Assembly: GCA_963806635.1 (NCBI GenBank)
Contig: CAWDZA010000002.1
Span: 68,048-100,047 of the forward strand
DNA: 32,000 bases
DNA from: an uncultured Chloroflexia bacterium
Lineage (GTDB): Bacteria > Chloroflexota > Anaerolineae > Anaerolineales > Anaerolineaceae
Direction of reading: 5' to 3'
Shown piece by piece: positions 2,275-32,000 of the stretch (the stretch's first letter is position 1; every line of letters starts with the position of its first letter). Position numbers and translations under genes: made by a program. The notes under the pieces are model-generated. The model was not told the origin of the DNA. It made no database searches and was given only the letters and a program-made list of their open reading frames with translations.

Positions 2275-2289
2275 TTATTTCCGACCGAA

Positions 2290-2309
2290 GGGCGGATAGC
2301 CATCCGCCC
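2290..2309 (+). terminator. Hairpin just downstream of the priA stop (possible terminator or small repeat)
   Basis: GGGCGGAT-AGCC-ATCCGCCC, perfect 8-bp stem; no clear T-run follows. Confidence 0.4.
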
Positions 2310-2334
2310 CTACAAAGTCAACCGAATAAATGAA

Positions 2335-2405: not shown

Positions 2406-4915
2406 TTATGCCGGCTCCGCCACCTTCTCGCGCTTGACCTTCACCTTTTTCTTCTTTGTCAGGATGATCTCCCCGGCTTTATCCAGGTCGATCCAGATGA
2501 TATCCCCATCCACGAACTCGCCGGCCAGCAGTTTATCCGAAAGGGCATCCTCGATCTTCTGCTGGATCACGCGCCGCAGCGGACGCGCGCCCATTTCGGG
2601 GTCGTAACCCTCATCCGCCAGCTTATTCAAGAGCCTCATCGGTGGCTTCCAGGGTCAGGTTGTGCTCAGCCAGGCGGTCGGAAACCTTCTTCAATTCCAG
2701 GGTCACGATCTCGCGGATCTGCTCGCGATTGAGGGCATGGAAGACGATGACCGAATCCAGGCGGTTGAGGAACTCGGGGCGGAAGACCTTTTTGAGCGAA
2801 TCCAGCAGGGTCTTGCGCATGTCGTCGTACTTCTGCTGCTCCTCGATGGCTTCATCGCGGGTGAGCTGAAAGCCGAGCGAGCCCTGCCTGCGGATCTCCT
2901 CCGCGCCGATGTTGGTGGTCATCACGATGATCGCGTTGCGGAAATCCACCTTGCGCCCCTTGGCATCCGAAAGATGCCCCTCCTCCATGATCTGCAGGAG
3001 CATGTTGTGCGCCTCGGGGTGGGCTTTCTCCACCTCGTCGAACACGACGATGGAATAGGGCTTGCGGCGGATGGCTTCGGTGAGCTGACCGGCTTCATCA
3101 TAGCCGACATAGCCAGGAGGCGCGCCCACCAGGCGGCTGACGGTGTGACGCTCCATGAACTCGGACATATCCAGCTGGATCATCGCGTCTTCGCTGCCGA
3201 AGAGGAAACGGGCCAGGGTCTTGGTCAGCTCGGTCTTGCCCACGCCGGTGGGACCCAGGAAGATGAAGGAGCCGATGGGGCGCTTGGGATCTTTGAGCCC
3301 GGCGCGCCCGCGCCGCACGGCTTTGGAGATGGCCTGGATGGCTTCCTCCTGCCCGACGATGGAGGTGCGCAGCTCATCTTCCATGTGCAGCAGGCGCTCG
3401 GATTCGGCGGTGGCCATCTGCATCACGGGCACGCCGGTCCACATGGAAACCACCTCGGCGATATCGTCGGCGGTGACCACGGGGCTGGTGGAGCGTTCCC
3501 AGGTGGTGCGCATTTTTTCCAGCTGAGCGTTGATGCTGCTTTCCCGGGTCAGCAGTGCCTGGGCTTCATCCAGCCGGCCATCTTCCACCGCGGTGGTGTG
3601 GCTCTGGCGCACTTCGCGCAGCTGGGTCATCAGGTCCTTCTGGGCTTTGGCCTGCGGGGATTTATACATGCGCACCCGCGAGGAGGATTCATCGATCAGG
3701 TCGATGGCCTTATCCGGCAGGAAGCGGTCGTTGACGTAGCGGGCGGAAAGGCGCGCGGCGGCTTCGAGGGCTGCATCGGAGATCACCAGGCGGTGGTGCT
3801 CTTCGTAGGGGGTGCGGATGCCGCGCAGGATCTGGATGGTCTCCTCCACGGTGGGTTCATTGACCATGATGGGCTGGAAGCGGCGCTCGAGGGCGGCGTC
3901 GCTTTCGATATTCTTGCGGTATTCATCGATGGTGGTGGCGCCGATCACCTGCAGCTCGCCGCGGGAAAGGGCGGGCTTGAGGATGTTGGCGGCATCCACC
4001 GAGGAACCGGCAGAACCGGCACCCACCAGCATGTGGACTTCATCGATGAAGAGGATGGACTTGGTGGCTTTGAGCTCGTCGATCACGCGCTTGAGGCGCT
4101 CTTCGAACTGACCGCGGTACATGGTGCCCGCCACCAGCGAGCCGACATCCAATTGAAGGACGCGCTTATTCGACGAGCGGCCCGGGGACATCCCCGGCGA
4201 TGATGCGCTGGGCGAGCCCTTCGATGATGGCGGTCTTGCCCACGCCGGGTTCGCCGATGAGGGCGGGGTTATTTTTGGTGCGGCGGGCCAGCACCTGGAT
4301 GACGCGCTCGATCTCCATCTGGCGCCCGATCACGGGGTCCAGCTTGCCTTCCTCGGCCTTGCCGGTCAGATCCGTGGCAAGCTGATCGACCAGGGGGGTT
4401 TTATCCTTCTTGCCGGATTCCGGTTTCTGCTGGGCGGTCTTATCCCCGCTGGCGGTGGTGGCACTGCCTGCCAGGCTGTTTTCGTTGAGCACGCGGTAGG
4501 TCTGGCGCCGGATCTGCTCCTGGGTGACGCCCAGCTTGCGCAGCACTTCCTGCCCGGCATCCTTGGTGGAATGGGTGAGGGCCAGCAGGAGGTGCTCGGT
4601 GCTGATGTATTGATTGCCCATGCGGCGGGCTTCCTCGATGGCCAGCTCCAGCAGCTCCTGCGTGCCGGGGGAAAGATCGATCTTGCCCTCGCGCTGCTCG
4701 CCATATCCGCCGATGCGCTCGACCATCTCCCGCACGCGGTCGGTCTCCAGTCCCAGGTCGCGCAGGACGCGCGAGGCGATGCCTTCCTCCTCCTCGATCA
4801 AACCCATCAGCACATGCTCTGTGCCGATGAAAGGCTGGCGAAAGCTTTCAGCAGCCTGGTGGGCCAGGCTGAGGACGTGGCGGGCGCGTTGGGTGAAGCG
4901 TTCCATTCCGGGCAA
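2406..4915 (-). CDS. clpC: ATP-dependent Clp protease ATP-binding subunit ClpC, disrupted by two frameshifts (~4180 and ~2635)
   Basis: ORFs 4166..4915, 2623..4191 and 2406..2639 join in order: Clp_N repeats ([19 protein letters not shown]), [10 protein letters not shown] Walker [15 protein letters not shown]-like middle region, [45 protein letters not shown]. Confidence 0.95.
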
Positions 4916-5635: not shown

Positions 5636-6796
5636 CTATATCTTCCCCACAAAACGCTCGATCCTGCGTAGCGCTTCCTCGATTTGGTCGTAGGCGGTGG
5701 CGTAGGAGCAGCGCACGAACCCCTCACCCCCCGCGCCGAAGGAATTGCCCGGCACCACGGCAACGTGTTCCTCCTGCAGCAGGCGGTGGGCGAATTCCTC
5801 GTCATCCAGCCCGGTGACCGAGACCTTCGGGAAGGCGTAAAACGCGCCGTGCGGCTCCACGGTGGGCAGACCGATGCGGTTCAGCCCATCCACGATCAGC
5901 CTCCTGCGCCGGTCGTATTCGGCGTGCATCTCCTTCACGTAGGGCTCACCGCTCTTCAGGGCTTCCTCCGCGGCGGCCTGAGCCGTGGTGGGGGCAGACA
6001 TGACCATATACTGGTGCACCCGTACCAACCCCTTGATGATCTCGGCGGGTCCGGCGGCATAGCCGATGCGCCAGCCGGTCATGGCGTAATCCTTCGAAAA
6101 GCCCCCCAGCAGCACGGTGCGGCTGCGCATGCCCGGCAGGGTGGGGAAGCAGACGTGCTCCACCCCGTAGACCAGGCGGTCGTAGATCTCGTCGGAGAGC
6201 ACCACCAGGTCGTGTTCCTCGGCGATGCGGGCGATCTGCAGCAGGCTTTCGCGGCTGGCCACCGCCCCGGTGGGGTTGCAGGGGAAGCCGAGCAGGATGG
6301 CTTTGCTGCGCGCGGAAACTGCTTTGGAGATATCGGCGGGATCTACATCGAAGTTATTCTCAAACCGGCAGGGCACCTCCACCGCCGCGCCGCCCGCCAT
6401 GATGGCGGAAGCCTGGTAGCTGACGAAGCAGGGGGTGGGGATGATCATCTCGTCGCCCGGGTCCAGCAGGGCGATGGCGCACAGGTTCAGCGCCTCCGAG
6501 CCGCCCACGGTGATGACGATCTCGGTGGCGGGGTCGTAGGTGACCCCGTAGAGCTTTTTGAGGTGCGCCGAAAGCGCCTGGCGCAGGGGGAGCGTGCCGA
6601 AATTGGAGGTGTAGTGGGTCTCGTTGCGCTGCAGCGAGCGGATGCCGGCCTGCAGGACTGGCTCGGGGGTGTTGAAATCCGGCTCGCCGATGCCCAGCGA
6701 GATCACTTCCTTCATGGTGGCGGCGATATCAAAGAACTTGCGGATGCCGGAGGGCCTGAGCCCGGCGATGCGGCGGGCGATGTATTGTTCGCGCAT
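5636..6796 (-). CDS. Pyridoxal-phosphate-dependent aminotransferase, class I/II
   Basis: 386-aa ORF with SLGIGEPDFNTPEPV, FPCNPTGAV, DEIYDRLVYG, GGFSKDYAMTGWRIGY (PLP Lys motif). Confidence 0.95.
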   Translation of the reverse strand: MREQYIARRIAGLRPSGIRKFFDIAATMKEVISLGIGEPDFNTPEPVLQAGIRSLQRNETHYTSNFGTLPLRQALSAHLKKLYGVTYDPATEIVITVGGSEALNLCAIALLDPGDEMIIPTPCFVSYQASAIMAGGAAVEVPCRFENNFDVDPADISKAVSARSKAILLGFPCNPTGAVASRESLLQIARIAEEHDLVVLSDEIYDRLVYGVEHVCFPTLPGMRSRTVLLGGFSKDYAMTGWRIGYAAGPAEIIKGLVRVHQYMVMSAPTTAQAAAEEALKSGEPYVKEMHAEYDRRRRLIVDGLNRIGLPTVEPHGAFYAFPKVSVTGLDDEEFAHRLLQEEHVAVVPGNSFGAGGEGFVRCSYATAYDQIEEALRRIERFVGKI

Positions 6797-6808
6797 GAGT
6801 CTCCTGTA

Positions 6809-7846
6809 TTATTCCTGCTGAGGGATGGGTTGATCTACTTCAACGATCGAGTTATCGCCGATATTGAGCCGGCCGCGGGCGCCCTTCACGATCACATCAC
6901 GTCCGAGATGCGAGTGGGTGAGGGTGCTATTCTCCACCATTGCACCCCGCTCGATGATCGCATCGTTCACGGTCACATTGTGCATCTCCACGCCCTCCGC
7001 CAGCGAGACGTGCGGACCGATGGTGCAGCTCTCCAGCTTTGCGTCCGCGGGGATGAAAACCGGCGGGATGACCTTCACACCGGCGTGGCGGGCGGCTTCG
7101 GCGGAGTTATCGTTGCCGCGCTCCAGCAGGTAGCGGTTCGTTTCGAGGGTAGCCTCGCGCGTGCCGGCATCCAGCCAGGTCTCCACGCTTTTGGTGGTGA
7201 AGACCGCGCCTTCCTCCAGCAGAACATTGATCGTATCGGTCACGAAATACTCGCCCTTGAGCGAGATCCCGCGCCGCACCTGGTCCTCGATGGCTTTCAT
7301 CAGGCGCGCACCGGATTTGAAATAATAGAACCCCACCACCACGCGGTTGTTGTGGATATCGGCGGGCTTTTCAACCATGCGGGTCACAAACCCCTTGGAA
7401 TCCACCTCCGCCACGCCAAAGCGGCGCGGATCGGGCACTTCCTTCACCCAGGCGACCCCATCCTGCTGCACGGTGGGCAGGAAGGCGAGATCCGTCTCGA
7501 TCAGCGTATCCGAAAAGGACATGAGCATGGGTCCGTGCAGGAATTCGCGCGCCAGGTAGAGCGCGTCGGATTGCCCGCGCATCACCGCCTGGATCACGTA
7601 TTCCACGCGCTTTTCCGGGTGAACTTTTTCCATGTACTCCTTCACCTGGTCAACCTGGAACGGGCTGCAGATGAAGACCCAGCGCGCGGATCCCACCCCG
7701 GGCAGGGTATCGAACTGCGCCAGGCAGTAATCGAGGACGGTCTTGCCCGCCAGGTGGATGAGCGGCTTGGCCTTGCTCCAGGTGTGCGGGCGCATGCGGG
7801 TGCCGTGGCCGGCCATGGGGATGGCAATGGAGAATGGTTCGCTCAA
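6809..7846 (-). CDS. Sugar nucleotidyltransferase with C-terminal left-handed beta-helix repeats
   Basis: 345 aa: IPMAGHGTRMRPHTWSKAKPLIHLAGKTVLDY, GVVVGFYYFKSG, EGVEMHNVTVNDAIIERGAMVENSTLTHSHLGRDV. Confidence 0.9.
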   Translation of the reverse strand: MSEPFSIAIPMAGHGTRMRPHTWSKAKPLIHLAGKTVLDYCLAQFDTLPGVGSARWVFICSPFQVDQVKEYMEKVHPEKRVEYVIQAVMRGQSDALYLAREFLHGPMLMSFSDTLIETDLAFLPTVQQDGVAWVKEVPDPRRFGVAEVDSKGFVTRMVEKPADIHNNRVVVGFYYFKSGARLMKAIEDQVRRGISLKGEYFVTDTINVLLEEGAVFTTKSVETWLDAGTREATLETNRYLLERGNDNSAEAARHAGVKVIPPVFIPADAKLESCTIGPHVSLAEGVEMHNVTVNDAIIERGAMVENSTLTHSHLGRDVIVKGARGRLNIGDNSIVEVDQPIPQQE

Positions 7847-7900
7847 ATCTGCCTCCGGTGAAGAGATCGGGTTGTAGAAATCATTTTACCCCAGGCAGGT

Positions 7901-28430: not shown

Positions 28431-28467
28431 GAAAACAGCGTGCTCGAGGTATCCTCGAGCACGCTGT
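28431..28467 (-). terminator. Strong intrinsic terminator downstream of the J/thioredoxin/PPIase gene
   Basis: ACAGCGTGCTCGAGG(28435-28449)-TAT-CCTCGAGCACGCTGT(28453-28467): perfect 15-bp stem, followed on the minus strand by TTTTC. Confidence 0.8.
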
Positions 28468-28502: not shown

Positions 28503-30101
28503 TCATTTCTCCTGGATGGTCACCGAAAGGATCGTATCCGCGGTGGGCAGAGTGCCGCCCTGGGAAGGATCGCGTTTGGTGAGCGCGTTGACCACGTCCA
28601 TACCCTCCACCACCCGGCCAAAGATGGTGTAATTGCCATCCAGGTTGGGCTGTGGGGCGAGGGTAATAAAGAACTGCGAACCATTCGTTCCGGAACCTGA
28701 ATTAGCCATGCCCAGAACGCCGGCGGCGTCAAACTTGAGATCAGGGCTGATCTCATCCCCGAACTGGTAGCCCGGTCCGCCCAGGCCCGTGCCGGTGGGG
28801 TCGCCCGTCTGGGCAACGAAGCCATCCAGCACACGGTGGAAGGGCACGCCATCGAACCATTTATTTTGGGCCAGGAATACCAGGCTGTTGACGGTGAGCG
28901 GGGCCTGCTTCGCAAAAAGCTCCACCACGATATCACCCTTGGTGGTCTGGATGGTGGCAGTATATTGCTTATTGGGGTCGACCACCATCGGCGGGCATTC
29001 CTTATATGACTTCTGCTCCAGTTTCCAAATATTCAGAACGGCATCCAGGTTTTCCTTGCTCAGTCCGATGGAATCGTTTGGATCCACGTTCACGGCAAAG
29101 ACAAGTTTGCCGCCCATTTCAATGAAGACGGAAGGCGTGGCGTTGACGCCCACATTCCCCGCCGCGGTGCGGAACTCTTCCACTTTCTTGACCATGGCAT
29201 CGCTTGTGAGGTCTTTGGTGAACTGCTCTGCATCCAGTCCAATTTCACCTGCTTTTCCAATGACCCAGGTCTGAAAGTCCTCGGGGGTCATCGCAGCCCA
29301 GGTCTGCCAGGTATCCGGGTTGAAGAGCACGTCGTGCATCTCCCAGAATTTACCTTGCAGGGAGGCTGCTTCGGCCGCCTGGAGGGCGATGGCGGATTTA
29401 TCGTGGCTGAGAGGGAAGTGCCGGTAAACGAAGCGGACGTCGTTGGGGTTGTCTTTGATGAATTGCTCCATCACGGGAGCAAGCTGGGCGCAGTACGGTC
29501 AGGTAAAGTCTGAATATTCGATGATGGTCATCACCGCATCTGCAGGACCTTTAACATAGTCCGTGCTGCTGACGGGCGGCAGTTTGGCAGCGTACTCCGT
29601 TTTCTCGGGTGGGAAGATCGAGGTGGCTGGCAGGCATTCACCAGGTTTGGCACCCACGATCTCCGGCACGGCCGTGGCAGCGGAGGGGGTTAATTCATTT
29701 CCGGCTGACTCCACCTGGGTGGTGCTCGCGCTGTTCTGGCTGCCGATGGGCAGGAATCTGCCCGCCAGCCCCGCGCCAACGATCAGCAGCAGGACAACAA
29801 CTCCGCCGAGCACATACAGCCAGGTGCGGTTCTTTGGTTTTTGCGCCGTTCCGGGAACTTCGTCAGGCGTTTTTACGCTCTTATCCGCTGCATAGCGGTC
29901 GTAATCCGCCCGGCGGGTTTTATCGGAAAGCACCTGGTAGGCTTCCTCGATGGCGGCAAAGTCCTTTTCCGCCTTGTCTTTCTGGGCGGGGTCCTCGAAT
30001 TTATCGGGGTGGAATGCCTGAAGGAGGAACTGGTAGCGCTCCTCAATTTCCTTTTTGCTCGCGTTCTTTGGGACACCAATAATATCGTAATAATCTTTCA
30101 T
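28503..30101 (-). CDS. Candidate selenoprotein: DnaJ-like J-domain, TM helix, thioredoxin/DsbA-like domain with U-P-Y-C motif (TGA at 29499-29501), cyclophilin-type peptidyl-prolyl isomerase
   Basis: ORFs 29499..30188 and 28503..29474 share one frame (30188 and 29474 are both 2 mod 3) and are split by a single TGA. Sequence: [15 protein letters not shown]...[10 protein letters not shown] (HPD); [21 protein letters not shown] (TM); [11 protein letters not shown]-[TGA][31 protein letters not shown] (Trx/DsbA-like); [20 protein letters not shown]...[25 protein letters not shown]...[13 protein letters not shown] (cyclophilin). Start is taken as the ATG at 30101. Confidence 0.75.
29463..29482 (-). 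promoter_or_regulatory. Putative bacterial SECIS-like hairpin downstream of the in-frame TGA
   Basis: mRNA: UGA-(CCGUACUGCGCCCAGC, 16 nt)-UUGCUCC-CGUGAU-GGAGCAA. Perfect 7-bp stem, 6-nt loop with G at loop position 2; the loop begins 23 nt after the UGA. Confidence 0.5.
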
Positions 30102-30105
30102 ATAT

Positions 30106-30735
30106 CTACCTCTCTTGGATTGCCGGCAGGCGGGAATCGACCGCCGCACGAATTTGGGATTGTACCACACTGCTTTCGTGGGCGGCATCGATGACCACCC
30201 AGCGCTGAGGCGCTTCCGCGGCCAGCTTCAAGTAACCGGCGCGCACCCGCTGGTGCAGCTCCAGCTGGTAATCGTCCATACGGTTCCATTCACCTCCGCC
30301 GCTTTTGCGGCGTTTCAAGCCCTGCTCGGCGTCTATATCCAACAACAGGGTCAGATCGGGAACGAGGCCCCCTGTGGCGAAATTCAGTATCTGGCGCAGC
30401 TGATCCAGGTCGTTGCCATGCCCGTAGCCCTGGTAAGCCAGGGTGGAATCGGCGTAGCGGTCGGAGATGACCACCTCGCCTTTTTCCAGATGAGGGCGAA
30501 TCACTTCGGCCACAAGTTGGGCGCGGGCAGAGCAGAAGAGCAGGGTTTCGGTGCGCGGATCCATGCCCTGGTTGCGCATGTTCATCAGGATCTCCCGCAC
30601 CTGGTCGCTGATCTCGGTACCCCCCGGTTCGCGGGTGGTAAGGACGGTGTACCCCTGCGAGCGTAGATGATCTGCCAGGGGCAGCATCTGGCTGGTCTTT
30701 CCGCTTCCATCGGGGCCTTCAAGAGTAATGAACAT
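30106..30735 (-). CDS. tmk: Thymidylate kinase
   Basis: MFITLEGPDGSGKTSQ, TREPGGTEISDQVREIL, DRYADSTLAYQGYG; the ORF extends to 30828 but the likely start is MFITLEG. Confidence 0.95.
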   Translation of the reverse strand: MFITLEGPDGSGKTSQMLPLADHLRSQGYTVLTTREPGGTEISDQVREILMNMRNQGMDPRTETLLFCSARAQLVAEVIRPHLEKGEVVISDRYADSTLAYQGYGHGNDLDQLRQILNFATGGLVPDLTLLLDIDAEQGLKRRKSGGGEWNRMDDYQLELHQRVRAGYLKLAAEAPQRWVVIDAAHESSVVQSQIRAAVDSRLPAIQER

Positions 30736-30862: not shown

Positions 30863-32000
30863 TCAATCTTTAAATATCCGCACCCGCCGGTTGGGATCCT
30901 TGCCGTAGGAATGCGAAACGAGCTCCGCCTGGCGGGCCAGGTCGTGCTGCAGGCGGCGGACGGAGGGTGTTGCGGGTGGCAGGTCCACAAAGCGCTGCCC
31001 GTTGAGCACCGCCTGGATGGCAGCCTGGGTCTGCTCGGCGGCGGATTCGTAATCACCATTCACATATCCGCCGGAGGGCAGGTTGAAAAGCTCGCCCAGG
31101 GCCTGTTCCATCTGGGTGACGGTGTTGGCGCGCAGGACGTAGATCGGTGACGCCGCGGGCTTCGGCTTCCAGGATCACCTGCTGGCGGTTGCGGTAGTAG
31201 GTGCGCAGGGTGATGAGCACCTCGGCATCGCCGGGCTCGCGGGTGATGATGGCCGGCACGCCCATGCGTTTGGCAGCCTGCAGCAGGCGGTTGCGTGCCA
31301 CCCCGTAGGGATAAATACGGATCGCGGGCAGCGCGGAGAGTTCCGGCGGATACTGCTCGCCATTGGTCACTTCCTCGCGGCGGCGAGGTTCGCGATCGGT
31401 GGAAAGCGGGGTACCCTCCACCCGCAAAGGTGCGGCGCTGCCCCTGCACAGCCTGGCGCTGGATGGGCGGGGTGGAGGCTTTTTCGGTGTGGATGCCGCC
31501 TTCGGCATCCCGCGAGCGGATCTCGGGGTGCAGCGGGTAGCCGCGCACCAGTTCATCCACCGCTTCGGCCACATCGTGGATGAACGACCAGCCGGTCGCG
31601 TTCCTGGATCTCGACCAGCACGTCGAAGGTGGGCGGGGCGCGGCGCTCGAGGACGGTCTTCTGCGTGCCGCGGCGGCGGGCTTCTTCATCAGAAAGGGTC
31701 ACGGATTCGATCCCGCCGATCAGGTCGGAGAGGGTGGGGTTGAGGAGCAGGTTTTCGAGGGTGCGTCCGTGGGCGGTGGCCACAAGCTGCACACCGCGCT
31801 CGGCGATGGTGCGGGCAGCCAGGGCTTCCAGCTCGCGCCCGATCTCATCGATGACGATCACCTCGGGGTTGTGGTTCTCGACTGCCTCGATCATCACCTC
31901 ATGCTGCAGGGTGGGCAGTGCGCACCTGCATGCGGCGCGCGCGTCCCACGGCCGGGTGGGGCACATCGCCATCCCCGCCGATCTCGTTGGAGGTATCCAC
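30863..32000 (-). CDS. R3H domain / SpoIIIAA-like (Ycf45-type) AAA ATPase, 5' end outside window, several frameshifts
   Basis: [26 protein letters not shown] (31925-32000), [102 protein letters not shown], and C-terminal R3H: LFNLPSG...[29 protein letters not shown]. The pieces lie in different frames. Confidence 0.85.

What the first reader, a model, noticed from the sequence alone, without database searches (positions are those of the whole stretch)
29463..29501. SECIS-like hairpin positioned correctly behind the in-frame UGA
Immediately downstream of the UGA the mRNA reads CCGUACUGCGCCCAGC-UUGCUCC-CGUGAU-GGAGCAA, a perfect 7-bp stem with a 6-nt apical loop. Bacterial SECIS elements lie in the coding region just after the UGA, typically with the apical loop roughly 16-37 nt downstream and a G in its first two positions. 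Here the loop starts after 23 nt and has G at position 2. A perfect 7-bp stem inside coding sequence at this spacing is supportive but not conclusive, because bacterial SECIS elements are loosely conserved.
Basis: partly seen in the sequence, partly recalled or inferred. Interest (0 to 1): 0.8.

Follow-up and report, generated by a model that had tools for sequence, protein, structure and literature searches.

The report
Selenocysteine insertion hairpin in DsbA-like gene

Summary
On the minus strand, UGA (29501..29499) is followed after 16 nt by a perfect 7-bp stem (29482..29476 with 29469..29463) and the loop CGUGAU.

Taken alone the hairpin is weak evidence: folding z-score is -0.78, and about 4% of window positions have one as good. 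Comparison with relatives settles it.
- The UGA replaces the first Cys of the CPYC redox motif of a DsbA-like domain. The gene is a single one: DnaJ, membrane helix, DsbA-like domain, cyclophilin.
- 26 loci from about 25 different assemblies carry TGA at this codon. Orthologues carrying TGC/TGT are interleaved with them in the tree.
- All 24 UGA orthologues have a qualifying hairpin, against 3 of 26 Cys orthologues.
- In 20 aligned sequences the stem is 98.6% paired, and 4 of 7 pairs show compensatory double changes.
- The loop bases at synonymous sites are invariant (Pro CCC and Val GUG, 20/20), while the same sites vary in Cys orthologues.
- Every published bacterial SECIS constraint is met.

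DsbA-like UxxC selenoproteins are a known family, so this is a new member of a known kind. SelB binding, selenium incorporation and the presence of Sec machinery in this genome were not tested.

The parts
28503..30101 (-). One gene of 532 codons, including the in-frame UGA at codon 201, plus its stop. Order of domains: DnaJ, TM helix, DsbA-like thioredoxin domain (U-P-Y-C), cyclophilin PPIase. The likely start is the ATG at 30101 ([10 protein letters not shown]). The mechanical ORF starts at 30188 but overlaps the upstream tmk gene.
   Evidence: Translation; Pfam hits PF00226, PF13462/PF01323 and PF00160 on the read-through protein; full-length Cys homologues P0085 and P0117 have the same architecture.
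29898..30095 (-). J domain (aa 3-68), inferred to be cytoplasmic.
   Evidence: PF00226, E = 5e-18.
29760..29822 (-). Predicted single membrane helix [21 protein letters not shown] (aa 94-114). The N-side flank is more basic (KPKNR) than the C-side flank (R), so N-in/C-out is inferred.
   Evidence: Read from the sequence. Some Cys orthologues have a lipoprotein signal peptide in place of DnaJ and the helix (P0010-P0012), which supports an extracytoplasmic DsbA-PPIase module.
29097..29564 (-). DsbA-like thioredoxin-fold domain (aa 180-335) with the redox motif U201-P-Y-C204.
   Evidence: PF13462 E = 2.5e-19 and PF01323 E = 8.8e-16. The motif aligns to the CPYC/CPFC active site of solved DsbA-like proteins 3gyk and 4pwp.
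29499..29501 (-). In-frame UGA, inferred to encode selenocysteine, at the position of the first (nucleophilic) Cys of the CxxC motif. The next base is always C.
   Evidence: TGA occurs at the same codon in 26 loci and TGC/TGT in 80 others. The base after UGA is C in 26 of 26.
29483..29498 (-). 16-nt spacer that codes for P-Y-C-A-Q and the first base of the Leu codon. Its variation follows a coding pattern, so it is translated in frame.
   Evidence: Entropy at codon positions 1/2/3 is 0/0/1.68 for Pro(+1) and 0/0/0.61 for Cys(+3).
29476..29482 (-). 5' arm of the SECIS stem, UUGCUCC.
29470..29475 (-). Apical loop CGUGAU. C-G-U-G is invariant in 20 of 20 sequences even though C and the second G sit at synonymous third-codon positions. 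The G-U at loop positions 2-3 is the presumed SelB contact.
   Evidence: Alignment A1; Pro(+8) is CCC 20/20 and Val(+9) is GUG 20/20.
29463..29469 (-). 3' arm of the SECIS stem, GGAGCAA.
28521..28955 (-). Cyclophilin-type peptidyl-prolyl isomerase domain (aa 383-527).
   Evidence: PF00160, E = 2.5e-42.
28432..28466 (-). Intrinsic terminator after the gene: 14-bp stem, 3-nt loop, then UUUU.

Best explanation
The hairpin at 29482..29463 (minus strand) is a bacterial SECIS element. It lies inside the coding sequence and is itself translated as L-A-P-V-M-E-Q. When the ribosome brings the UGA (29501..29499) into the A site, about 11 nt of downstream mRNA sit in the ribosome's mRNA tunnel. The stem starts 17 nt after the UGA, so the whole 7-bp helix stays folded outside the ribosome. 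SelB-GTP carrying Sec-tRNA(Sec) binds the loop, where the G-U at positions 2-3 of the invariant C-G-U-G is the likely contact. SelB then delivers selenocysteine to the UGA before RF2 can terminate. The product is one membrane-anchored protein: a cytoplasmic J domain, a TM helix, and an extracytoplasmic DsbA-like oxidoreductase with a U-P-Y-C active site fused to a cyclophilin. Shown here: the hairpin exists; it is conserved with covariation; it is constrained at synonymous sites; it occurs with UGA and not with Cys codons; the segment after the UGA is translated in frame; and the UGA sits at the catalytic Cys position. Inferred from the established bacterial Sec pathway: SelB binding, delivery of Sec-tRNA(Sec), and the identity of the inserted residue.
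For: (1) All published bSECIS model constraints are met (PMC13188914): loop of 3-9 nt (here 6), stem of 4-16 bp (7), G in the first two loop positions followed by G or U (C-G-U), spacing of 16-37 nt (23), and MFE at or below -7.5 kcal/mol (-9.1 and -11.1). (2) 23 of 25 distinct UGA-containing sequences have a qualifying hairpin at or below -7 kcal/mol. The figure is 5 of 79 for Cys-containing sequences and 9% for background positions (Mann-Whitney p = 2e-13). Among orthologous DsbA-cyclophilin fusions it is 24 of 24 against 3 of 26. (3) In alignment A1 (20 sequences), 98.6% of cells are paired and 4 of 7 pairs have changes on both sides (U-A/G-C in 8 sequences, C-G/A-U, U-A/C-G). None of 500 shuffles reaches the observed values, and slid registers give only 21-56% pairing. 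RNAalifold predicts the same helix on its own. (4) The synonymous third base of Ala(+7) is U when codon +11 is GAG (Glu) and G when it is GCG (Ala), in all 20 sequences. (5) Loop bases at synonymous sites are frozen: Pro(+8) is CCC and Val(+9) is GUG in 20 of 20. Other invariant Pro and Val codons in the gene have third-position entropy of 1.7-1.9, and Cys orthologues use CCT/CCC/CCG/CCA at Pro(+8). (6) More distant UGA-containing DsbA-like genes (L023/L024, L062, L158, L017) have different hairpins at a similar distance, while their Cys relatives L101 and L102 lack them. (7) UGA serves as an ordinary stop for about 8 other genes in the window, so the code is not reassigned. The gene's own terminal UGA has no such hairpin. 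(8) DsbA-like and DsbG-like UxxC proteins are established selenoprotein families (PMC1088965, PMC13188914). The best NCBIfam hit is the Chloroflexi '(seleno)lipoprotein' model NF041057. Chloroflexi are documented Sec users (PMC1794560, PMC5389517, PMC13326102).
Against: No selA, selB, selD or tRNA-Sec was found in the window or in the roughly 130 kb of held UGA-carrying loci. These genes are usually unlinked to selenoprotein genes, and the whole genomes could not be searched. In the single sequence the hairpin is not statistically exceptional. The peptide L-A-P-V-M-E-Q fixes 4 of the 7 pairs whatever codons are used (my reading of A1), so part of the stem comes free with the protein sequence. 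The UGA sequences are phylogenetically related, so the counts overstate the number of independent events. The loop contains possible start codons (GUG, AUG/UUG), which gives another possible reason for their conservation. No Rfam family matches.
Confidence: 0.85

Rival explanations
1. The hairpin is a by-product of the conserved peptide LAPV(M/L)(E/A)Q and of codon bias. On this view the UGA may still encode Sec, but the signal lies elsewhere, or read-through needs no such structure.
For: The peptide fixes 4 of the 7 pairs regardless of codon choice (my reading of A1). The single-sequence statistics are unremarkable.
Against: Synonymous sites within the hairpin are frozen or covary with their pairing partners, while synonymous sites elsewhere vary freely. 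Cys orthologues with similar peptides (L084 AAPVMEK, L011 LAPILEE, L093 VAPMLDQ) do not form the hairpin. Unrelated hairpins occupy the same position in distant UGA-containing paralogues.
Confidence: 0.05
2. The UGA is a true stop. Two proteins are made: DnaJ-TM plus half a thioredoxin fold, and a 322-aa protein starting at the GUG/AUG inside the loop. The hairpin and its conserved GUG would then serve termination-reinitiation coupling. This is how public gene calls treat the locus.
For: All close homologues are annotated this way (P0001-P0009, P0114). GUG (29474) and AUG (29471) lie in the loop and the start of the 3' arm, and GUG is invariant.
Against: The 8 codons between the UGA and the GUG keep an in-frame coding pattern, with invariant Pro and Cys and free third positions. 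This split would cut the DsbA fold at its active site and discard both active-site residues. Cys orthologues are continuous single ORFs. There is no Shine-Dalgarno-like sequence before the GUG/AUG (sequence). TGA/TGC alternation at a catalytic Cys is the typical pattern of Sec/Cys selenoprotein families (PMC1794560).
Confidence: 0.04
3. The UGA is recoded with help from the hairpin, but the inserted residue is not Sec. For example, Cys could be delivered by a tRNA-Sec-like tRNA through SelB, or a near-cognate tRNA could read through.
For: Nothing here identifies the residue, and the Sec machinery was not located. From my own knowledge rather than a paper read here, SelB-dependent Cys insertion at UGA has been described in some bacteria.
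Against: This is rare compared with canonical Sec insertion. The position is a catalytic Cys in known UxxC selenoprotein families. Chloroflexi have tRNA-Sec and selenoproteins.
Confidence: 0.05
4. The TGA is a sequencing or assembly error for TGC, or the gene is a pseudogene, and the hairpin is irrelevant.
For: The window seems to carry frameshifts in two other genes: the clpB-like gene at 2623..4915 and the SpoIIIAA/R3H gene at 30863..31972.
Against: The same TGA is present at the same codon in 26 loci from about 25 different assemblies, down to about 45% protein identity. Reading frames on both sides are intact and conserved.
Confidence: 0.01

Closest known systems
Bacterial SECIS elements (E. 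coli fdhF/fdnG type; consensus bSECIS model used by bSECISearch)
   Same: A hairpin within the coding sequence directly downstream of the Sec-UGA. It has a small apical loop with G at position 2 followed by U. Its loop length, stem length, spacing and stability all fall within the published ranges (PMC13188914). The geometry fits the model in which the upper SECIS stays folded outside the roughly 11 nt occluded by the ribosome (PMC4513850).
   Different: There is no primary-sequence similarity to fdhF. The helix is a simple 7-bp stem with no conserved bulge and no conserved lower stem (RNAalifold finds only this helix). The loop motif C-G-U-G-N-U is conserved across this Anaerolineales clade. 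SelB binding was not tested.
DsbA-like selenoprotein family (form 1, PF01323, UxxC), first described from the Sargasso Sea metagenome
   Same: A DSBA/Thioredoxin_4 domain with Sec in place of the first Cys of CxxC, widespread Cys homologues, and a SECIS-like hairpin after the UGA (PMC1088965, PMC13188914).
   Different: Here the DsbA-like domain sits in a three-part protein, between DnaJ plus a TM helix and a cyclophilin. None of the selenoprotein papers I read mentions that combination (no occurrence of cyclophilin, peptidyl-prolyl or DnaJ). The lineage is Anaerolineales.
DsbG-like / Rcas_1661 family thioredoxin-like (seleno)lipoprotein (NCBIfam NF041057, UxxC)
   Same: It is the best NCBIfam match (E = 6e-21, aa 126-325). 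It is a Chloroflexi extracytoplasmic thioredoxin-fold protein curated as Sec-containing.
   Different: The score is 75 bits against a curated cutoff of 190, so this protein is not a member by NCBI's criterion. The domain architecture also differs.
Remnant SECIS-like structures in Cys homologues that evolved from Sec forms (M. succiniciproducens FdhA, D. hafniense HesB-like; PMC1794560, Fig. 4)
   Same: Locus L085 has TGC but keeps the hairpin UUGCGCC-CGUGCU-GGCGCAG at the same spacing, and it groups with UGA forms L008 and L090.
   Different: This concerns a relative, not the window itself. The direction of change (Sec to Cys) is inferred from a rough NJ tree.

Membership tests
Bacterial SECIS (bSECIS consensus model) | Located in the coding region immediately downstream of an in-frame UGA | tested here: met
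   UGA at 29501..29499 and hairpin at 29482..29463 lie in the same ORF.
Bacterial SECIS (bSECIS consensus model) | Apical loop of 3-9 nt and upper stem of 4-16 bp | tested here: met
   Loop of 6 nt and stem of 7 bp; constraint taken from PMC13188914.
Bacterial SECIS (bSECIS consensus model) | At least one G in the first two loop positions, usually followed by G or U | tested here: met
   The loop is C-G-U-G-A-U, and C-G-U-G is invariant in 20 of 20 homologues.
Bacterial SECIS (bSECIS consensus model) | Spacing of 16-37 nt between the UGA and the apical loop | tested here: met
   23 nt, the same in all 20 sequences of the main hairpin type.
Bacterial SECIS (bSECIS consensus model) | MFE at or below -7.5 kcal/mol | tested here: met
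   -9.1 kcal/mol for the hairpin alone and -11.1 kcal/mol for 62 nt.
Bacterial SECIS (bSECIS consensus model) | Structure conserved in UGA-containing homologues and absent from Cys-containing homologues | tested here: met
   98.6% paired, 4 of 7 covarying pairs; 24 of 24 against 3 of 26 orthologues.
Bacterial SECIS (bSECIS consensus model) | Bound by SelB and required for Sec insertion at the UGA | not testable with these tools
   Needs a reporter assay, EMSA or 75Se labelling.
Bacterial SECIS (bSECIS consensus model) | Sec machinery (selA, selB, selC/tRNA-Sec, selD) present in the same genome | tested here: inconclusive
   None was found in the 32-kb window, and no tRNA-Sec in 25 UGA-carrying loci. 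Whole genomes could not be searched. Sec use at phylum level is documented.
DsbA-like selenoprotein (form 1, PF01323, UxxC) | DSBA/thioredoxin-fold domain | tested here: met
   PF01323 at 58.7 bits (cutoff 25.6) and PF13462 at 70.5 bits (cutoff 23.2); PDB relatives 3gyk, 4pwp and 3eu3.
DsbA-like selenoprotein (form 1, PF01323, UxxC) | The UGA aligns with the first Cys of the CxxC redox motif, and the second Cys is retained | tested here: met
   U-P-Y-C aligns with C-P-Y-C or C-P-F-C in homologues and in solved structures.
DsbA-like selenoprotein (form 1, PF01323, UxxC) | Cys-containing homologues exist at the same position | tested here: met
   80 TGC/TGT loci against 26 TGA loci.
Rcas_1661 / DsbG-like (seleno)lipoprotein (NF041057) | Score at or above the curated NCBIfam cutoff of 190 bits | tested here: not met
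   75.1 bits.

The most novel reading that the evidence does not exclude
This may be an uncatalogued selenoprotein subfamily of Anaerolineales. It would be a membrane-spanning folding factor with a cytoplasmic J domain and an external Sec-containing DsbA domain fused to a cyclophilin. Its SECIS would be old within the clade and conserved in sequence (loop C-G-U-G-N-U, stem with covariation), and the Sec form would have been replaced by Cys several separate times, with the hairpin decaying afterwards. Public gene calls for the close relatives I found miss it by splitting the gene in two.
Probability: 0.4. Interest if true: 0.5.

Novelty: new member of a known kind. Interest (0 to 1): 0.4.

Why it matters
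First, it corrects an annotation error. The ten closest protein clusters found (P0001-P0009 and P0114) are recorded as a 322-aa "cyclophilin" that lacks the DsbA active site, next to a separate "DnaJ" ORF. They are in fact one roughly 530-aa selenoprotein.

Second, it provides an unusually clean natural test of a bacterial SECIS. There are about 20 homologous hairpins with compensatory changes, frozen synonymous sites in the loop, matched Cys sister lineages that have lost the structure, and one lineage (L085) that looks caught midway. Bacterial SECIS elements are hard to model, so such a set is useful for training and benchmarking predictors. It also suggests which loop bases the Anaerolineales SelB may read.

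Third, it places selenium in extracytoplasmic disulfide-bond and proline-isomerisation chemistry in an abundant but poorly studied environmental lineage.

Tried and rejected
- Rfam found nothing at gathering thresholds over the whole window. A permissive scan of 29350..29600 gave only noise (miRNA and snoRNA models, E > 3).
- ARAGORN found no tRNA, and so no tRNA-Sec, in the window or in 25 UGA-carrying loci.
- Pfam annotation of 20 long ORFs in the window found no selA, selB or selD.
- The metagenome and genome collection scans only reached relatives of 62% identity or less. The close relatives had to be fetched one at a time with the look-up of encoding contigs.
- Single-sequence folding significance was tried and is uninformative.
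- A scan of the window and the UGA-carrying contigs for a second selenoprotein candidate (in-frame TGA, nearby Cys, hairpin) gave only hits in non-coding frames.
- Genome-wide UGA reassignment was rejected, because UGA ends about 8 other genes in the window.
- Sequencing error was rejected, because the TGA recurs in about 25 assemblies.
- I did not build a covariance model. One built from A1 would mostly capture conservation of the coding sequence, which Cys homologues share, and would add little to the explicit hairpin and covariation tests.
- bSECISearch is a web tool and could not be run. I applied its published constraints in a script instead.
Full report
**1. The observation**

The feature lies on the minus strand. 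The mRNA reads UGA (29501..29499), then CCGUACUGCGCCCAGC (29498..29483), UUGCUCC (29482..29476), CGUGAU (29475..29470) and GGAGCAA (29469..29463). That gives a perfect 7-bp stem and a 6-nt loop. There are 23 nt between the UGA and the loop, and G is the second loop base.

RNAfold puts the hairpin in both the MFE and the centroid structure of the 62 nt starting at the UGA (-11.1 kcal/mol). The hairpin alone evaluates to -9.1 kcal/mol.

Taken alone the hairpin is not remarkable:
- The z-score against dinucleotide-preserving shuffles is -0.78, and 34 of 200 shuffles fold as well.
- 4.3% of all 63,820 positions on both strands of the window are followed by an equal or better ungapped hairpin that meets the same spacing, loop and G criteria.
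- A narrower control is more favourable. Of the 11 TGAs in the window that join two ORFs of at least 100 codons in frame, only this one has such a hairpin; the next best scores -4.2 kcal/mol.
- Of 8 genuine TGA stops in the window, one has a qualifying hairpin. It may be a terminator, which I did not check. The gene's own terminal UGA has none.

**2. The gene around it**

Reading through the UGA gives one ORF, 30101..28503 on the minus strand, of 532 codons. Pfam finds four domains on it:
- a J domain (aa 3-68, PF00226);
- a DsbA-like thioredoxin domain (aa 180-335; PF13462 E = 2.5e-19, PF01323 E = 8.8e-16);
- a cyclophilin PPIase (aa 383-527, PF00160, E = 2.5e-42).

A hydrophobic helix (aa 94-114) separates the J domain from the rest. 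The UGA is codon 201. It sits at the first Cys of the redox motif, giving ...EYSDFT-U-P-Y-C-AQL.... This aligns with the CPYC or CPFC active site of solved DsbA-like proteins 3gyk and 4pwp.

Some Cys orthologues carry a lipoprotein signal peptide where this protein has DnaJ and the helix (P0010-P0012). The DsbA-PPIase module is therefore probably outside the cytoplasm. That topology is an inference.

UGA is not reassigned in this organism, because about 8 other genes in the window end in TGA. A textbook intrinsic terminator follows the gene at 28466..28432.

**3. Homologues: the UGA is conserved**

The ten closest protein clusters (P0001-P0009 at 75-99% identity, and P0114 at 61%) are all annotated as proteins of about 322 aa. 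They start at the internal "MEQF", just after the CxxC position, and so lack the active site.

I fetched the DNA for six of them. Each has an upstream DnaJ or N-terminal ORF that ends exactly 27 nt before the annotated start. Each has TGA at the homologous codon, followed in frame by PYCA(Q/S)LAPV. Synteny is also conserved: SpoIIIAA/R3H, thymidylate kinase, this gene, then an acyltransferase.

The metagenome and GTDB genome scans added more distant relatives, nearly all from Anaerolineales or other Chloroflexota. Across all loci, 26 have TGA at this codon and 80 have TGC or TGT. The TGA loci come from about 25 different assemblies, which rules out a sequencing error.

The codons between the UGA and the hairpin show a coding pattern. 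Pro(+1) has entropy 0/0/1.68 at codon positions 1/2/3, and Cys(+3) is invariant. This segment is therefore translated in frame. That argues against termination at the UGA followed by reinitiation at the GUG or AUG inside the loop.

**4. The hairpin across homologues**

(a) Association with UGA. Using the published bSECIS constraints, 23 of 25 distinct UGA sequences have a hairpin at or below -7 kcal/mol. The figure is 5 of 79 for Cys sequences and 9% for background positions (Mann-Whitney p = 2e-13). Restricting to the 50 orthologous DsbA-cyclophilin fusions, 24 of 24 UGA forms have a hairpin at or below -6 kcal/mol, against 3 of 26 Cys forms (Fisher p = 2.4e-11).

(b) Phylogeny. In a rough NJ tree, Sec and Cys forms are interleaved, and the Cys sister lineages lack the hairpin. 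Examples are L001 next to L165, L091/L098 next to L089/L139, L014/L099 next to L086, and L101/L102 next to L023/L024. The one Cys locus with the hairpin at the homologous position is L085, which groups with UGA forms L008 and L090. It resembles the "remnant SECIS" cases reported in PMC1794560.

(c) Covariation. I aligned 20 ungapped sequences of the main hairpin type (A1).
- The helix (columns 20-26 with 33-39) is paired in 98.6% of cells.
- Four of the 7 pairs change on both sides: U-A to G-C in 8 sequences, C-G to A-U, and U-A to C-G at two positions.
- None of 500 shuffles reaches the observed pairing or covariation.
- Sliding the 3' partner by 1-3 columns drops pairing to 21-56%.
- RNAalifold predicts exactly this helix and nothing else.
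- The synonymous third base of Ala(+7) tracks a non-synonymous change 11 nt away. It is GCU when codon +11 is GAG (Glu) and GCG when it is GCG (Ala). L010 swaps both codons (GAG...GCU) and keeps the pairing.

(d) Synonymous-site constraint. Pro(+8) is CCC and Val(+9) is GUG in 20 of 20 sequences. These codons supply loop bases 1 to 4. Other invariant Pro and Val codons in the same gene have third-position entropy of 1.7-1.9 bits. Cys orthologues use CCT, CCC, CCG and CCA at Pro(+8).

(e) Convergence. More distant UGA-containing DsbA-like genes have unrelated hairpins at a similar distance:
- L023 and L024 have an 8-bp stem 16 nt downstream, and differ from each other by a G-C to U-A compensatory change;
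- L062 has a 7-bp stem with loop GUC;
- L158, from a Deltaproteobacteria MAG, has a 6-bp stem with loop GUC.

**5. Mechanism**

The best explanation is a canonical bacterial SECIS. The stem begins 17 nt after the UGA. With the UGA in the A site, the whole helix lies beyond the roughly 11 nt occluded by the ribosome. It is then available to SelB-GTP-Sec-tRNA(Sec), which delivers Sec and pre-empts RF2. This is the model for E. coli fdhF (PMC4513850).

The invariant C-G-U-G of the loop, with G-U at positions 2-3, fits the consensus of "G followed by G or U in the first two loop positions" (PMC13188914). It is the likely SelB contact. The base after the UGA is C in 26 of 26 loci. The Pro codon of the CPxC motif forces this. 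From my own knowledge, C is also the weakest termination context for RF2 in E. coli.

The sequence-level evidence above is shown. SelB binding, Sec insertion and the identity of the inserted residue are inferred.

**6. Comparison with what is known**

Every structural constraint of the bSECIS consensus model is met: loop 3-9 nt, stem 4-16 bp, G in loop positions 1-2, spacing 16-37 nt, MFE at or below -7.5 kcal/mol.

The protein falls within the DsbA-like UxxC selenoprotein family, first reported from the Sargasso Sea (PMC1088965) and listed as "DsbA-like protein form 1, PF01323, UxxC" in a 2026 review. Its best NCBIfam hit is NF041057, the Rcas_1661 "thioredoxin-like (seleno)lipoprotein" family, called "DsbG-like, UxxC" in the review. 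The score is 75 bits against a cutoff of 190, so it is not a member of that family by NCBI's criterion.

Chloroflexi are documented Sec users. The records are 3 selenoprotein families in 2006, tRNA-Sec with an 8/4 structure, and Dehalococcoidia genomes with 46-49 selenoproteins.

None of the selenoprotein papers I searched mentions a cyclophilin or DnaJ fusion, or Anaerolineae. That is absence from the texts I read, not proof that the fusion is new.

**7. What could not be done**

The Sec machinery was not located. There is no tRNA in the window, no tRNA-Sec in 25 UGA-carrying loci, and no selA, selB or selD among 20 long ORFs of the window. Rfam has no matching family. bSECISearch itself could not be run.

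**8. Verdict**

The hairpin is very probably a functional SECIS (confidence about 0.85) for a DsbA-like UxxC selenoprotein. Both the signal and the protein family are of known kinds, so this is a new member of a known kind with moderate interest (0.4).

Its value lies in three things: the clarity of the comparative evidence, the correction of a recurring gene-call error, and the unusual DnaJ / DsbA(Sec) / cyclophilin architecture in Anaerolineales.

Noticed in passing
window 28432-28466 (-): A textbook intrinsic terminator lies 36 nt after the selenoprotein gene's stop: 14-bp stem CAGCGUGCUCGAGG / AUA / CCUCGAGCACGCUG, followed by UUUU. The gene's own terminal UGA (28505..28503) has no bSECIS-like hairpin, which serves as an internal control.
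   Followed up: partly
window 2623-4915 (-): A ClpB/ClpC-like chaperone gene is split into two ORFs that overlap by 26 nt: 4166..4915 (Clp_N) and 2623..4191 (AAA_lid_9, AAA_2, ClpB_D2-small). This looks like a frameshift, either real or an assembly indel.
   Followed up: no
window 30863-31972 (-): The SpoIIIAA/PTPase/R3H gene is a single ORF of 394-532 aa in relatives L162, L163 and L165. In the window it is broken across at least three reading frames. Together with the clpB split, this suggests the window carries indel errors, perhaps from a long-read assembly.
   Followed up: no
L085 396-460 (JALUWE010000007.1, Anaerolineales MAG): This Cys orthologue (TGC) still carries the hairpin UUGCGCC-CGUGCU-GGCGCAG at the same 23-nt spacing. 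It looks like a remnant SECIS after a recent Sec-to-Cys replacement.
   Followed up: partly
L062 2164 and 3457; L067, L140, L149, L151: L062 has tandem DsbA-like paralogues on one contig, one with TGA (CPFC position, hairpin AAGGUCG-GUC-CGACCUU) and one with TGC. Other contigs (among those with a record title, Myxococcota MAGs and an unclassified bacterial MAG) carry 3-4 tandem DsbA-like CPFC domains.
   Followed up: no
L023 / L024 versus L101 / L102: A second, unrelated SECIS-like hairpin type occurs in a different DsbA-cyclophilin clade: an 8-bp stem 16 nt after the UGA, with loop UGGCC or UAGCC. L023 and L024 differ by a G-C to U-A compensatory change. Their Cys relatives L101 and L102, from Thermoflexales MAGs, lack the hairpin.
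   Followed up: partly
window 4803-4831 (-) and 2288-2311 (-): There are two strong local hairpins. One is a 12-bp stem inside the Clp_N coding region. The other is a GC-rich 10-bp stem (AGGGGCGGAU/GGCU/AUCCGCCCUU) about 300 nt downstream of the clpB-like gene, with no U-run after it.
   Followed up: no
window 5636-7861, both strands: A 725-aa ORF on the plus strand (5684..7861) has no Pfam hit. It overlaps two long minus-strand ORFs (5636..6796 and 6809..7846). I did not resolve which strand is coding.
   Followed up: no
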